From assembly GCF_009914755.1 (NCBI RefSeq), contig NC_060925.1: 64,000 bases of DNA; one strand, written 5' to 3'. Below are positions 34,268 to 37,243 of the stretch, piece after piece. How positions within the stretch are numbered: position 1 is the stretch's first letter; the number at the start of each line of letters is the position of its first letter. The position numbers and the translations under genes are program-made. Source of the DNA: the human T2T-CHM13v2.0 reference genome, Homo sapiens. The notes below the pieces were generated by a model. The model searched no databases, was not told where the DNA came from, and saw only the letters and a program-made list of their open reading frames with translations.

Positions 34268-35326
34268 AGGGAAACACATGGCTTTAGAGTAAACCTTGTA
34301 CTATCTTGATATTGATCTTTGATCATGTTTTTTAGTGCTTAAAGTGTCTCACCACTGCCTTCCTGAAAAACTTCTAATTTCTTAGGCCTTTATAGTTTGA
34401 CTCCTGTCCTCCTTTCTAGTCTTTTCCCTCATCACATTTCTCCATTACCAACTATTTTCCCCCAGTAGTTAGTGGTCTTTGTAGTTTGGATCCAACTAAT
34501 GCCAGTTCCAATCGGGCTCTGTCGTTAGCTGTGTGGTCTTGGGCAAGTTACTGTAATGAGAAGAAAAGCAGACTCTAGTACCTGGGGCTGTGGTGTGCAT
34601 TCCTATAAATTCAGCTTGTTCAACTGCAGGTGTATTCCTGGTACATGGGTGGAGGACACTGATAGTAACTACTTTAAATCATTGTTTTCTCATGTGAAAA
34701 CTGAGGGTAATTTTTTTCAGAATTGTTATGAAGATTAAATGAGAAAACTTAAAGCATCTGGCAGGGTCCTTGCACTTAGTAGATACTTAACAAAAACTTG
34801 TTTTTGTCGTAGTTCAATTCCTTCATGGTTCCCTGAACGGGGCTTATAAGGTCCTTGTTTTAATCCTTTCTTGCACATGGAATGCACAGTTCTCATCCTT
34901 CAAGACTGTGTCTAAAATACCTTCTTTTCTGTGAAACCTTTACATCTTCTGCTAATCTCTGCTGTCTCTGAACTTAAGGTATTGTTTTTACCATTGACTT
35001 TGTTATTAAATCATACTCCACCCTGTGGCATCTTTGTAGTTACCTGTTACTATTTAATCCTTTTTTTTTTTTTTTTACATACTTAATGCTTTGTTCAACT
35101 AAATTGTTCTTTAAGAGTGGGGTCTATGTTTAAAAAGGGGCTTCAAAACCATTCCAATTATTTTATAGGACCTGATTTCTTCAGATTTGTTATCTTGAGT
35201 ATCTTGTACCCAGAAAATGCTTTGAAATGATTAATGCAAAAGGAAGAGAATGTATCATCACATTTCACCTCTCCTAAATATAGTGGTATTGTGAAATTCA
35301 CGTAAGCCAGATGCTTAGTTCAAAGC

Positions 35327-35685
35327 TGATACATTGGTTTGCTTCTGTGTCCCCACACAAATCTCATCTCTAACTGTAATCACCACGTGTCTAGGGAGGG
35401 AACTGGTGGGAGGTGATTGGATCATGGGGGCAGTTTCCCCCATGCTGTTCTCGTGATAGTGAGGGAGTTCTCATGAGAGCTGATGGTTTTAAATGTGGCA
35501 CTTCCTTGCTCTGTCTCTCCTGCCGCCACGTAAGACATGCCTTGCCTCCCCTTGGTCTTCTGCCATGATTGTAAGTTTCCTGAGGCCTTTCCAGCCATGC
35601 GGAACTGTGAGACAGTTAAACCTCTTTCCTTTATAAATTACCCAGTCTCAGGTAGTGTATAGCAGTGTGAAAACGGACTAATACG
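35327..35685 (+). mobile_element. THE1 (THE1C/D-like, MaLR) solo LTR, sense to SOAT1
   Basis: tgata...tgtgtccccacacaaatctcatct...catgattgtaagtttcctgaggcc...aaacggactaatacg; 5-bp TSD AAAGC at 35322-35326 and 35686-35690. Confidence 0.93.
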
Positions 35686-35719
35686 AAAGCTTTTTACACC
35701 TTCTTTCCTAGACAATACA

Positions 35720-35837
35720 ATGGTGGGTGAAGAGAAGATGTCTCTAAGAAACCGGCTGTCAAAGTCCAGGGAAAATCCTGAGGAAGATGAAGACCAGAGA
35801 AACCCTGCAAAGGAGTCCCTAGAGACACCTAGTAATG
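35720..35837 (+). CDS. SOAT1: Sterol O-acyltransferase 1 (ACAT1), coding part of exon 2 (exon 35712-35837), codons 1-39 plus 1 nt
   Basis: Acceptor ttctttcctag|ACAATACA, strong Kozak acaATGG, translation [39 protein letters not shown] (human SOAT1 N-terminus), donor ATG|gtgagg. Second in-frame ATG at 35738. Confidence 0.97.
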
Positions 35838-37243
35838 GTGAGGCTTAATTTTTTTTTTTTAGGTGAATTAGTGAAATAGAGAACAAATACAGTGTTATAG
35901 AATAAGTATTGCCATCTCTTTAATTCTTTATTGTAAATGGGTATTGATAGAGTTTTATATGTCTAGTAACAAAGCAATTAGACAATAAGTCCTTTCTCGT
36001 TAATTAATTTGGTGGTCATCTATTGGTATCTGCTGTGTTTTAGAGACCATTCATTCAGTCACGTAACCTACCAATAATTGCTGAGGTCCCCCGCTGGATG
36101 CTGGGGCTATAGCAGTGATCAGTACGGATTTGTTTGCCATTATGGAGCTCCAAGTTAAGTGAATGACAAAACCTCCAAAATCATACACATAACTAGATTT
36201 ATCACAGTGTAATATTCTTGTAATTAACTACTTTCATAATAGATGTAATGAGTAAAATGTGAGTAATTAGCAGGGTGCCTAACCCAGTTCAATACTGAGC
36301 TATAAATCTTGGGAGAGGAGTAGTTAGGGAGTTTTATTAGTTCTTGTATCCACGTTTGCTTAATGCCTGACTACAAAGAGGAATACGATAGTCCTTTGTT
36401 GTTAAGGTCAAGGTTTATGATTATGAATGATAGACTTGTAAACACAACTCTAATTGATGTCATCTATTGCATCAGGGTATTAATTTTTGCAGTGACATTT
36501 GTAAAGGTTTGATTTCAACAAGGATTTGAAAATTGAGGATTGTTTAGTTAACAAATAGGTGCGGAACCTTCTGAGACAGGTTGTCTTTGGCATTTCATCT
36601 CTTTTCATAAAGAAACAGTTTTGTTTTTCCTACCTAAATTTAATTAAACTTAAATATCAACAGCTGGATCCCACCAGGAATGTAAACATTGCTGCTTGAG
36701 TTGGCATAATGAGGTTTATTGATAGGCTCTTAGTTAGCTATATATGACATATTTATATGGCATATGGGCTAGTTTTAGTGTGATATAAAATGTGAAATTT
36801 ATGCAAAGGAGGATGAGCCAATACTGGGGAGAATTCTCCTTCCGTGATTTAGGGACTTAGTGATAACCCAGTTTGTTTCCCTTGCCTGCATTCTCACGCA
36901 TTAGAAACTTCATGCTTGTTTGTTCCTTCCGGTTCTTGGGACAGAAAAGTTATTTTAATTGAAACTTTCTGTCACTGTATATGATCATTCTCTTTATGTC
37001 CCAAGTTTTTAAAAAGATTCTAAATTCTTCTGATTTCTGTGTATTTTCAGTGTTCTTTATTGTCCTAGTTCATTAAGTTTTAGTCAGTCCAGGTTTTAGT
37101 GCAGGTGTTAAAAATTGAATTGGTTAGCTTAAATCAAGAAGTGTAACAACCTCTTTGGTTTAATGTAAATAATGCTAATTTGAAAATGTTTCTTCACATA
37201 TTGTAACATTTATTCACCTTGGGGAGTAAGTGCTTTGGGAGTA

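What the first reader, a model, noticed from the sequence alone, without database searches (positions are those of the whole stretch)
35671..35711. A retroviral LTR end appears to supply the branch point of the first coding exon
Seen: the THE1 LTR ends at 35685, only 26 nt before exon 2 (TSD AAAGC plus a 21-nt pyrimidine tract/AG). The insertion therefore split the 3' splice region and pushed the ancestral upstream sequence (..gatgcttagttc) ~360 nt away. The LTR terminal motif GGACTAATAC contains CTAAT (35678-35682), a yUnAy match with branch A 35681 at -31, the canonical distance. The only downstream alternative is TTTAC with A at -16, which is unusually close. The AG in the TSD is 7-8 nt past the branch A, usually too near to be used. 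Inference: an anthropoid-age LTR was tolerated because its last bases were exapted as an essential splicing signal for the ATG-bearing exon.
Basis: partly seen in the sequence, partly recalled or inferred. Interest (0 to 1): 0.75.

Follow-up and report, generated by a model that had tools for sequence, protein, structure and literature searches.

The report
Old LTR abutting SOAT1 exon 2

Summary
A 359-bp solo LTR (35327-35685, sense to SOAT1) is flanked by a perfect 5-bp duplication AAAGC. It ends 26 nt before exon 2 (35712; ATG 35720). It belongs to the THE1 group of ERVL-MaLR elements. It is not THE1A or THE1B; it is closest to THE1C/D-type copies, and the exact label is unresolved. Its divergence from the centre of its nearest relatives is about 6%, which fits the simian-only age given in print.

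CTAAT (branch A 35681, -31) is a full yUnAy match. It has the best U2 pairing of all 19 adenines from -70 to -10. A site this good occurs in 0.8% of 19-nt windows of SOAT1 intron background.

- The motif is ancestral to the family (39 of 49 copies keep it), so it came ready-made and shows no sign of selection here.
- TTTAC (-16) is also a full yUnAy match and lies downstream of the insertion.
- Print shows that introns commonly use several branch points.
- RefSeq lists transcripts that skip exon 2, and mice lacking this exon keep enzyme activity.
- I could reach no lariat or cross-species data.

TE-supplied branch points are already known, so this is a new member of a known kind. "Essential" is not shown.

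The parts
35322..35326 (+). Upstream copy of the 5-bp target-site duplication (AAAGC)
   Evidence: Read. Identical to 35686-35690. It directly abuts the LTR's TG start.
35327..35685 (+). Solo LTR of the THE1 group (ERVL-MaLR), 359 bp, sense to SOAT1
   Evidence: 7,678 first-look candidates in the genome; the 39 scored copies other than itself are 83-86% identical; relatives start TGATATGG and end ACTAATACA, and at least 4 of 29 show perfect 5-bp duplications; there is no second copy in the 64-kb window, so it is solo; comparison with copies named in print.
35678..35682 (+). CTAAT, candidate branch site; branch A at 35681 (-31)
   Evidence: full yUnAy and U2 duplex energy of -4.2 kcal/mol, the best of the 19 adenines between -70 and -10; a site this good is found in 0.8% of background windows. 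There is no lariat evidence.
35686..35690 (+). Downstream copy of the target-site duplication. It holds the only AG (35688-35689) between the candidate branch A and the acceptor.
   Evidence: The AG lies 7-8 nt after A35681, at the edge of the bypass zone described in PMC2991248 and PMC7969005.
35691..35709 (+). Host polypyrimidine tract (17 of 19 pyrimidines), containing the rival branch candidate TTTAC (A35696, -16)
   Evidence: TTTAC is a full yUnAy match, but its U2 duplex energy is +1.4 kcal/mol.
35710..35711 (+). AG of the exon 2 acceptor
   Evidence: RefSeq exon start 35712.
35712..35837 (+). SOAT1 exon 2, the first coding exon (CDS from 35720)
   Evidence: NM_003101.6 and others; translation [39 protein letters not shown].

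Best explanation
A THE1-group MaLR element inserted in an early simian, in sense orientation, 26 nt upstream of the acceptor of SOAT1's already existing first coding exon. It later collapsed to a solo LTR. The insertion left the host's pyrimidine tract and AG in place but moved everything upstream of -26 away by 364 nt. The last bases of the LTR read ACTAAT, which is the family's own terminal motif. That places a strong U2-pairing branch sequence with its adenine at -31. Most likely intron 1 now branches at A35681 (or within 1-2 nt of it), at least as one of several branch points. The AG 7-8 nt downstream would be bypassed because it is too close.

Shown: the anatomy, the family, the quality and rarity of the motif, and that it came ready-made.
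Inferred: that it is used.
Not shown: that it is needed.
For: - Anatomy and duplication.
- Abundant family, with termini and 5-bp duplications like ours.
- A35681 has the best U2 duplex (-4.2 kcal/mol, Mercer-style, using the U2 octamer found at position 31 of the U2 gene in L035) and a full yUnAy match among the 19 adenines from -70 to -10.
- Such a site occurs in 0.8% of 19-nt background windows.
- Position -31 lies inside the 19-37 nt zone that holds 90% of mapped branch points (PMC4315302 passage) and near the median of -28 (PMC5959240 passage).
- An AG within about 7-12 nt of a branch point is bypassed: PMC2991248 and PMC7969005 passages.
- The displaced 5' flank offers only weak candidates; the best is cttAg, 2 of 3 yUnAy positions, -1.3 kcal/mol.
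- TEs can supply used branch points: PMC7969005 and PMC7951965 passages.
Against: - There is no lariat read, catalogue entry or cross-species alignment. Supplements of the branch-point atlases are closed, and no non-human genome is on hand.
- TTTAC (-16) is also a full yUnAy match. It has an 11-nt pyrimidine run after it and lies downstream of the insertion.
- In print, U2 complementarity correlates only weakly with usage, and nearly all introns use several branch points.
- The AG at +7/+8 sits at the very edge of the bypass distance.
- Retention of CTAAT here is uninformative, because 23 of the 29 nearest copies keep it without any such role.
- My energy ranking is not a validated predictor.
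Confidence: 0.5

Rival explanations
1. The LTR is a passenger. The working branch point(s) lie in the 26 host-derived bases that stayed next to the exon: TTTAC A35696 at -16, A35698 at -14, or the duplication's adenines at -24 to -26. The same site served before the insertion. The element was tolerated simply because it landed just upstream of every signal the acceptor needs.
For: - TTTAC is a full yUnAy match followed by a contiguous pyrimidine run up to the AG.
- The pre-insertion flank has no strong candidate upstream of the insertion point, so the ancestral intron may already have relied on the proximal site.
- Position matters more than U2 pairing in print.
- Fixed TEs that sit very close to acceptors are rare and are expected to be the harmless ones (PMC3088655 passages).
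Against: - Position -16 lies outside the 19-37 nt zone holding 90% of mapped branch points and outside the -49 to -20 zone holding 80%.
- Its U2 duplex is the second poorest in the -45 to -10 stretch, at +1.4 kcal/mol; the duplication's adenines score -1.4 to -2.7 with 0-1 of 3 yUnAy positions.
- A far better site now sits 15 nt upstream.
Confidence: 0.3
2. The LTR end is an indispensable splicing signal held by purifying selection, and the insertion survived only because of it.
For: The same evidence as for the best explanation. In addition, fixed repeats this close to acceptors are rare: 84 of 18,960 chr1 acceptors have a masked repeat ending within 26 nt. Sense LTRs near exons are depleted.
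Against: - The motif is ancestral to the family and is kept in 39 of 49 unrelated copies.
- The last 14 bases of the LTR show one change (the final base), which is about what roughly 6% divergence predicts.
- Branch-point redundancy is the rule.
- Exon 2 is skipped in NM_001252512.2 and NR_045530.2.
- Mouse exon-2 deletion gives an active truncated enzyme.
Confidence: 0.12
3. A distal branch point lies deeper in the LTR or upstream of it (beyond -45).
For: Distal branch points are commoner before exons that can be skipped, and exon 2 can be skipped.
Against: - Five AG dinucleotides lie between -68 and -48, and one more lies at -24. Any of them would be taken first by a branch point further upstream.
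- All adenines from -70 to -39 pair poorly with U2 (-1.2 kcal/mol or weaker).
Confidence: 0.05

Closest known systems
TE-derived branch points of mutation-activated pseudoexons (LTR78 in F8, the L1MD3 end in GPR143, AluY in CEP290; PMC7951965, passages seen)
   Same: The edge or body of a transposed element supplies the predicted branch sequence for a nearby acceptor. In GPR143 it is, as here, the 3' end of the element that contributes.
   Different: Those are disease pseudoexons switched on by new mutations, and their branch points are mostly predicted. Here the exon is the ancient, canonical, ATG-bearing exon of a conserved gene, and the element is fixed.
MIR insertions that introduce or remove branch-point competitors in OGDH intron 4a (PMC7969005, passages seen)
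   Same: That work shows by branch mapping that an inserted TE can bring branch points that the spliceosome uses. It also shows that AGs closer than about 8-12 nt to a branch point are not chosen.
   Different: That was a reporter system with distant branch points and SINE fragments. It was not a natural, fixed LTR at the usual -19 to -37 distance.
THE1-family LTR co-options as promoters or enhancers (CSF1R, TNFRSF11A and WNT5A in PMC6558280; IL2RB in PMC13313205; CRH in PMC6166974; passages seen)
   Same: The same group of simian-specific MaLR LTRs contributes a ready-made signal to a host gene.
   Different: Those act on transcription through U3/R sequences. Here the proposed signal is an RNA-level splicing element formed by the last bases of U5.
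Alu exonization (PMC2330237; search listing and abstract only)
   Same: A repeat supplies 3' splice-region signals.
   Different: An Alu creates a new, mostly alternative exon from its own body. Here nothing new is made: an old exon would merely have swapped one of its signals.

Membership tests
ERVL-MaLR, THE1-group LTR | Sequence similarity over the whole LTR to copies named THE1 in print | tested here: met
   The whole LTR aligns with the CRH, CSF1R and TNFRSF11A THE1B copies, the SQOR THE1A copy and the IL2RB THE1D copy. Identity is 82-85% over aligned columns, and K2P distance is 0.185-0.211. Distance to its own 29 nearest copies is 0.135.
ERVL-MaLR, THE1-group LTR | TG...CA termini, about 350-370 bp, 5-bp target-site duplication | tested here: met
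   The LTR reads TG...CG; the final A of the family is G here, and 25 of the 29 nearest copies end CA. It is 359 bp with a perfect AAAGC duplication. That 5 bp is the family's rule is recalled. It was seen in at least 4 of 29 copies.
ERVL-MaLR, THE1-group LTR | High copy number in the human genome | tested here: met
   7,678 first-look candidates. The terminal 11-mer occurs 13,175 times against 1,339 for the reversed control.
THE1 subfamily (A, B, C or D) | Best match to one subfamily reference (Dfam/RepeatMasker) | not testable with these tools
- Not A or B: ours and 29 of 29 nearest copies carry a 9-bp segment that is missing from the 3 named THE1B copies and the 1 named THE1A copy and is present in the THE1D copy. 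K2P to a THE1B-anchored set is 0.201.
- Nearest to a THE1D-anchored set (0.147), but with about 25 more gap bases than within either set.
- The top-40 lists of the three queries share no place.
- Conclusion: THE1C/D-like, label open.
THE1 group | Simian-only: present at the orthologous site in monkeys and apes, empty in tarsier, lemurs and rodents | not testable with these tools
   No non-human genome is available. Print says MSTB, MSTA and THE1A-D are found only in simians (PMC10735291 passage). Divergence from the centre of the nearest copies is K2P 0.063.
Functional U2-type branch point | yUnAy consensus with a branch adenine | tested here: met
   CTAAT matches at all constrained positions. 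This is weak evidence by itself, because 33% of background windows hold such a match.
Functional U2-type branch point | Distance of about 19-37 nt from the acceptor | tested here: met
   A35681 is at -31. The zone comes from the PMC4315302 passage.
Functional U2-type branch point | Pairing with the U2 branch-recognition sequence | tested here: met
   -4.2 kcal/mol, the best of 19 adenines. Among 1,855 non-overlapping background windows, 12% reach this energy with any adenine, and 0.8% of sliding windows reach it together with yUnAy.
Functional U2-type branch point | No usable AG between the branch point and the acceptor | tested here: inconclusive
   One AG lies 7-8 nt downstream. Print puts the bypass limit at 7/8 to 12 nt. 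No RefSeq transcript uses it.
Functional U2-type branch point | Lariat reads or mapped 2'-5' junction at the site | not testable with these tools
   Atlas tables are in supplements, which are closed. No paper in the library links SOAT1 with branch points. One atlas demands unique sequence around the branch point for its top confidence class, which would penalise a site inside a repeat.
Exapted (selected) TE-derived signal | Slower change at the motif than in the rest of the element or in unselected copies | tested here: inconclusive
   Only paralogues could be compared. 23 of the 29 nearest copies and 39 of 49 over three sets keep CTAAT, so retention here carries no signal. Orthologues were not available.

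The most novel reading that the evidence does not exclude
In the common ancestor of monkeys and apes, a MaLR insertion replaced the branch signal of an ancient, ATG-bearing exon in one step. The old weak site was pushed 364 nt away, and the element's own terminal ACTAAT took over at exactly the same distance (-31). Since then every anthropoid has spliced SOAT1's first coding exon through retroelement-derived bases. More widely, the 3' terminus of THE1/MST LTRs, present more than 10,000 times in the genome, would be a portable near-optimal branch site able to rescue or seed acceptors wherever it lands in sense 20-35 nt upstream of a pyrimidine tract and AG.
Probability: 0.3. Interest if true: 0.55.

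Novelty: new member of a known kind. Interest (0 to 1): 0.35.

Why it matters
If lariat data confirm it, this would be a clean natural example of a host gene's core splicing signal being swapped for retroelement sequence without changing the mRNA. Exon-centred surveys of TE co-option cannot see that kind of event. It would also show why some insertions inside the "hazardous zone" next to acceptors survive: the element brings its own replacement signal.

In practical terms, it marks 35678-35682 as intronic bases worth watching when SOAT1 variants are interpreted. It also warns that branch-point catalogues which filter out repeat-derived reads may miss such sites.

As it stands, the evidence is a well-founded prediction and no more.

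Tried and rejected
1. Calibrating the U2-pairing score on about 1,100 real chr1 acceptors. I used SOAT1 intron background instead.

2. A chr1 survey of acceptors with a masked repeat ending 12-30 nt upstream. 62 of 18,960 qualify. I analysed 59 of them, after dropping 3 NBPF rows as near-duplicates.
   - The best-pairing adenine in -19 to -37 falls in the repeat in 39 of 59.
   - Only 2 of 59 (SOAT1 and ARMH1) combine that with full yUnAy and <= -4.2 kcal/mol.
   - All of this is prediction. Masked repeats carry no family names and include simple repeats and Alu tails.
   - Among these 59 acceptors, only SOAT1's repeat edge reads as the THE1-type LTR end (by eye). So I have no support for a general "LTR end seeds acceptors" effect there.

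3. A genome-wide list of LTR ends for an enrichment test. The pattern search gave whole counts but listed only the first 100 places, so the test was not possible.

4. Local RNA structure. A 9-bp stem (35665-35673 with 35691-35699) would loop out ACUAAU and bury the -16 adenine. It is not better than shuffles: z = -0.02 for 120 nt and z = -1.24 for 45 nt, with 24 of 200 shuffles folding as well. I rejected it as evidence.

5. Subfamily naming through copies named in print and through overlap of top-hit lists. This excludes THE1A and THE1B but cannot tell C from D.

6. Antiquity of exon 2 by protein search. This was not done. The 39-residue exon peptide is too short for the length window of the protein search, and a joined full-length protein may not be typed. 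I used the print statement on mouse exon 2 instead.

7. The pre-insertion site was not rebuilt by joining the flanks. Candidates in the 5' flank were scored in place and their would-be distances computed by arithmetic.

8. Papers.
   - Passages only (find mode): PMC10735291, PMC7951965, PMC6166974, PMC3088655, PMC4315302, PMC6558280, PMC13313205, PMC3836709, PMC2991248, PMC5378181, PMC5959240, PMC7969005, PMC8398989.
   - Abstract or listing only: PMC10204343, PMC11805910, PMC2330237, PMC2367711.
   - "Not in print" rests (SOAT1 with branch point or lariat terms; SOAT1 with THE1, MaLR or solo LTR). The only SOAT1 hits were two circRNA reviews. Supplementary tables of the branch-point atlases, which I could not open, may well list this intron.

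9. Substitution rates used for dating (1.0-2.2e-9 per site per year) are recalled, not from a call.

Full report
WHAT IS THERE. I read 35100-35900. The sequence runs ...gatgcttagttc AAAGC | TGATACATTGG ... GGACTAATACG | AAAGC tttttacaccttctttcct AG | ACAATACAATGG. The repeat is 35327-35685 (359 bp). It is flanked by a perfect 5-bp direct repeat at 35322-35326 and 35686-35690. Nineteen bases follow (35691-35709, 17 of 19 pyrimidines), then AG (35710-35711), and exon 2 starts at 35712. RefSeq's select transcript NM_003101.6 and four other transcripts use this exon. The ATG at 35720 opens [12 protein letters not shown].... Every coordinate in the finding is right: CTAAT is at 35678-35682, A35681 at -31, A35696 at -16, and the AG of the duplication is 7-8 nt after A35681.

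IS THE REMNANT REAL, AND OF WHAT FAMILY.
- Searching the reference with the 359 bp gave 7,678 first-look candidates. The 39 scored copies other than itself are 83-86% identical over nearly the whole length.
- The 29 fetched copies mostly start TGATATGG and end ACTAATACA. 25 of 29 end CA, and at least four (L008, L010, L012, L019) show perfect 5-bp duplications.
- Our copy has G for the family's last A.
- No second copy lies in the 64-kb window, so it is a solo LTR.

For a name, I located LTRs that papers name:
- THE1B upstream of CRH (PMC6166974), upstream of CSF1R, and near TNFRSF11A (PMC6558280);
- THE1A at the SQOR start (PMC10735291);
- THE1D at the IL2RB placental promoter (PMC13313205).

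All align with ours end to end at 82-85% identity over aligned columns. It lies in the same orientation as SOAT1, judged from the LTRs that drive IL2RB and SQOR.

Subfamily:
- Ours and 29 of 29 nearest copies carry a 9-bp segment absent from the three THE1B copies and the one THE1A copy and present in the THE1D copy.
- Mean K2P distance is 0.135 to its own set, 0.147 to ten copies anchored on the THE1D LTR (but with about 41 gap bases against 14-18 within sets), and 0.201 to ten copies anchored on the CSF1R THE1B LTR.
- The three top-40 lists share no place.
- So it is not A or B. It is C/D-like, and the label needs a repeat library. I built no consensus.

AGE.
- Our copy's branch is K2P 0.063; the others average 0.072. 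On transversions alone the values are 0.027 and 0.024.
- The sample is the best-matching 29 of thousands, so these are low estimates.
- With recalled rates of 1.0-2.2e-9 per site per year, this gives about 30-60 million years.
- Print says MSTB, MSTA and THE1A-D occur only in simians and are more than 40 million years old (PMC10735291 passages). Other sources give about 50 million years (PMC6166974 passage; PMC11805910 abstract).
- "Anthropoid-age" is consistent with this, but I could not test orthologous presence.

THE BRANCH-POINT QUESTION. I scored every adenine from -70 to -10 in the way of Mercer et al.: RNAduplex of the flanks, branch base removed, against the U2 octamer. The octamer was confirmed at position 31 of a U2 gene found with Rfam RF00004.

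| Adenine | Position | yUnAy | U2 duplex (kcal/mol) |
|---|---|---|---|
| A35681 | -31 | full | -4.2 (best of 19) |
| A35680 | -32 | 0 of 3 | -3.2 |
| A35683 | -29 | 1 of 3 | -2.8 |
| A35686-35688 (duplication) | -26 to -24 | 0-1 of 3 | -2.7 to -1.4 |
| A35696 (TTTAC) | -16 | full | +1.4 |

Against 35,362 nt of SOAT1 intron background:
- a full yUnAy match is present in 33% of 19-nt windows, so the consensus match alone is not remarkable;
- yUnAy with <= -4.2 kcal/mol is present in 0.8% of windows (15 sites).

Position -31 is inside the 19-37 nt zone of 90% of mapped branch points; -16 is outside it. The AG at 35688-35689 defines the AG-exclusion zone. Print finds predicted branch points up to 7-8 nt upstream of such an AG, and finds that AGs closer than about 8-12 nt to a branch point are not chosen. 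So the geometry is allowed, though only just.

WHAT THE INSERTION DISPLACED. I scored the 5' flank in place and computed where each base would sit without the 364 nt. The best candidate is cttAg, also at -31, with 2 of 3 yUnAy positions and -1.3 kcal/mol. Everything else is weaker. The ancestral intron therefore had no strong upstream site. Either it used that weak site, in which case the LTR brought a better one to the same distance, or it already used TTTAC at -16, in which case the LTR is a passenger.

WHY "EXAPTED, ESSENTIAL" IS TOO STRONG.
1. CTAAT is the family's own terminal motif. 23 of the 29 nearest copies have it (the other six read CTAAC x2, CTGAT x2, CTGAC and CTAAG). So do 7 of 10 THE1D-anchored and 9 of 10 THE1B-anchored copies. 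The terminal 11-mer occurs 13,175 times in the genome against 1,339 for the reversed control. The signal came ready-made, and its survival here is what neutral decay gives.
2. Nearly all introns use several branch points. Usage tracks position more than U2 pairing, and a classic case shifts to a cryptic site when the main one is lost (PMC5959240 passages).
3. Exon 2 is not indispensable. RefSeq lists NM_001252512.2 and NR_045530.2 without it. The AKR mouse deletion of exon 2, the first coding exon there too, leaves an N-terminally truncated but active enzyme (PMC8398989 passage). That passage also supports the view that the exon predates primates.
4. I have no lariat, orthologue or population data.

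HOW UNUSUAL IS THE SETTING.
- On chr1, 84 of 18,960 acceptors of select transcripts have a masked repeat of at least 100 bp ending within 26 nt upstream. 62 have one ending 12-30 nt upstream.
- Of the 59 I analysed (3 NBPF rows dropped), the best-pairing adenine in the usual zone falls in the repeat in 39. Only SOAT1 and ARMH1 also have full yUnAy and <= -4.2 kcal/mol.
- So repeats reaching into the branch zone are rare per acceptor (about 0.3-0.4%) but must number in the hundreds genome-wide. SOAT1 stands out for the quality of the motif, not for the principle.
- Print agrees that TEs near acceptors are depleted, sense LTRs especially (PMC3088655), and that TEs can supply branch points (PMC7951965 and PMC7969005).
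- No paper in the searchable library links SOAT1 with branch points or with THE1.

VERDICT. The element is a real THE1-group solo LTR of simian age. I give about even odds (0.5) that intron 1 branches in the LTR's last bases, about 0.3 that the working site is in the host's 26 nt, and low odds (0.12) for the strong "essential, selected" version. This is a new member of a known kind.

LIMITS.
- The subfamily is unresolved.
- Dating rests on a biased sample and recalled rates.
- Supplements of the branch-point atlases were closed.

Noticed in passing
window 35327-35685 (CpGs at 35386, 35452, 35524, 35529, 35600, 35674, 35684): The LTR keeps 7 CpGs. Six sit at places where only 1-6 of the 29 nearest copies still read CG and most read TG or CA. 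Among 54 other copies examined the mean is 2.5, and only one reaches 7 or more: the IL2RB promoter LTR, with 9. This hints that the SOAT1 copy has been kept unmethylated in the germ line. No RefSeq functional element overlaps it.
   Followed up: partly
window 35615-35620: Where 21 of the 29 nearest copies read the hexamer ATTAAA (within AATTAAA), this copy reads GTTAAA; only 2 of 29 share that. If that hexamer is the family's poly(A) signal, which is my inference from its place near the LTR's 3' end, its loss would help a sense-oriented LTR to be tolerated inside an intron.
   Followed up: partly
window 26827-56532 (SOAT1 transcripts): RefSeq lists NM_001252512.2 (exon 1 joined to 56474, skipping exon 2) and NR_045530.2 (skipping exons 2 and 3). 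It also lists NM_001252511.2, which skips exon 3. Exon 2 is therefore not strictly constitutive.
   Followed up: no
window 35665-35699: Nine bases of the LTR (35665-35673) can pair with nine host bases (35691-35699). This would loop out the ACUAAU and bury the -16 adenine. It appears in both the MFE and the centroid structures but is not better than shuffles (z = -1.24).
   Followed up: yes
window 35327-35340 and about 35658: This copy has about 3 extra bases just after its start compared with most relatives. It also lacks 3 or more bases near LTR position 332 that 28 of the 29 nearest copies carry.
   Followed up: no
G000 chr1:44,575,028 (ARMH1 acceptor; L067): This is the only other chr1 acceptor in the survey where the edge of a masked repeat supplies a full yUnAy site with strong U2 pairing (GACTAAC, adenine at -30, -5.1 kcal/mol). 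It sits after an A-rich tail.
   Followed up: no
G000 chr5:21.49-21.59 Mb, 34.31-34.43 Mb and 71.67-71.71 Mb: THE1B-like LTR copies with identical scores recur at a regular spacing of about 20.3-21.3 kb: 6, 7 and 3 copies listed. An LTR is therefore embedded in large tandem repeat units on chr5.
   Followed up: no
L014 (chr2:87.19 Mb) and L021 (chr2:112.21 Mb): These two LTR copies are almost identical (K2P 0.006) and have the same flanks. They are a segmental duplication, not two insertions, so they count once for dating.
   Followed up: no
window 35392-35495 and 35553-35686: The annotation file lists only two masked stretches of 100 bases or more within the LTR. The second ends at 35686, one base past my boundary. 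Part of the element is either unmasked or masked in pieces shorter than 100 bases.
   Followed up: no
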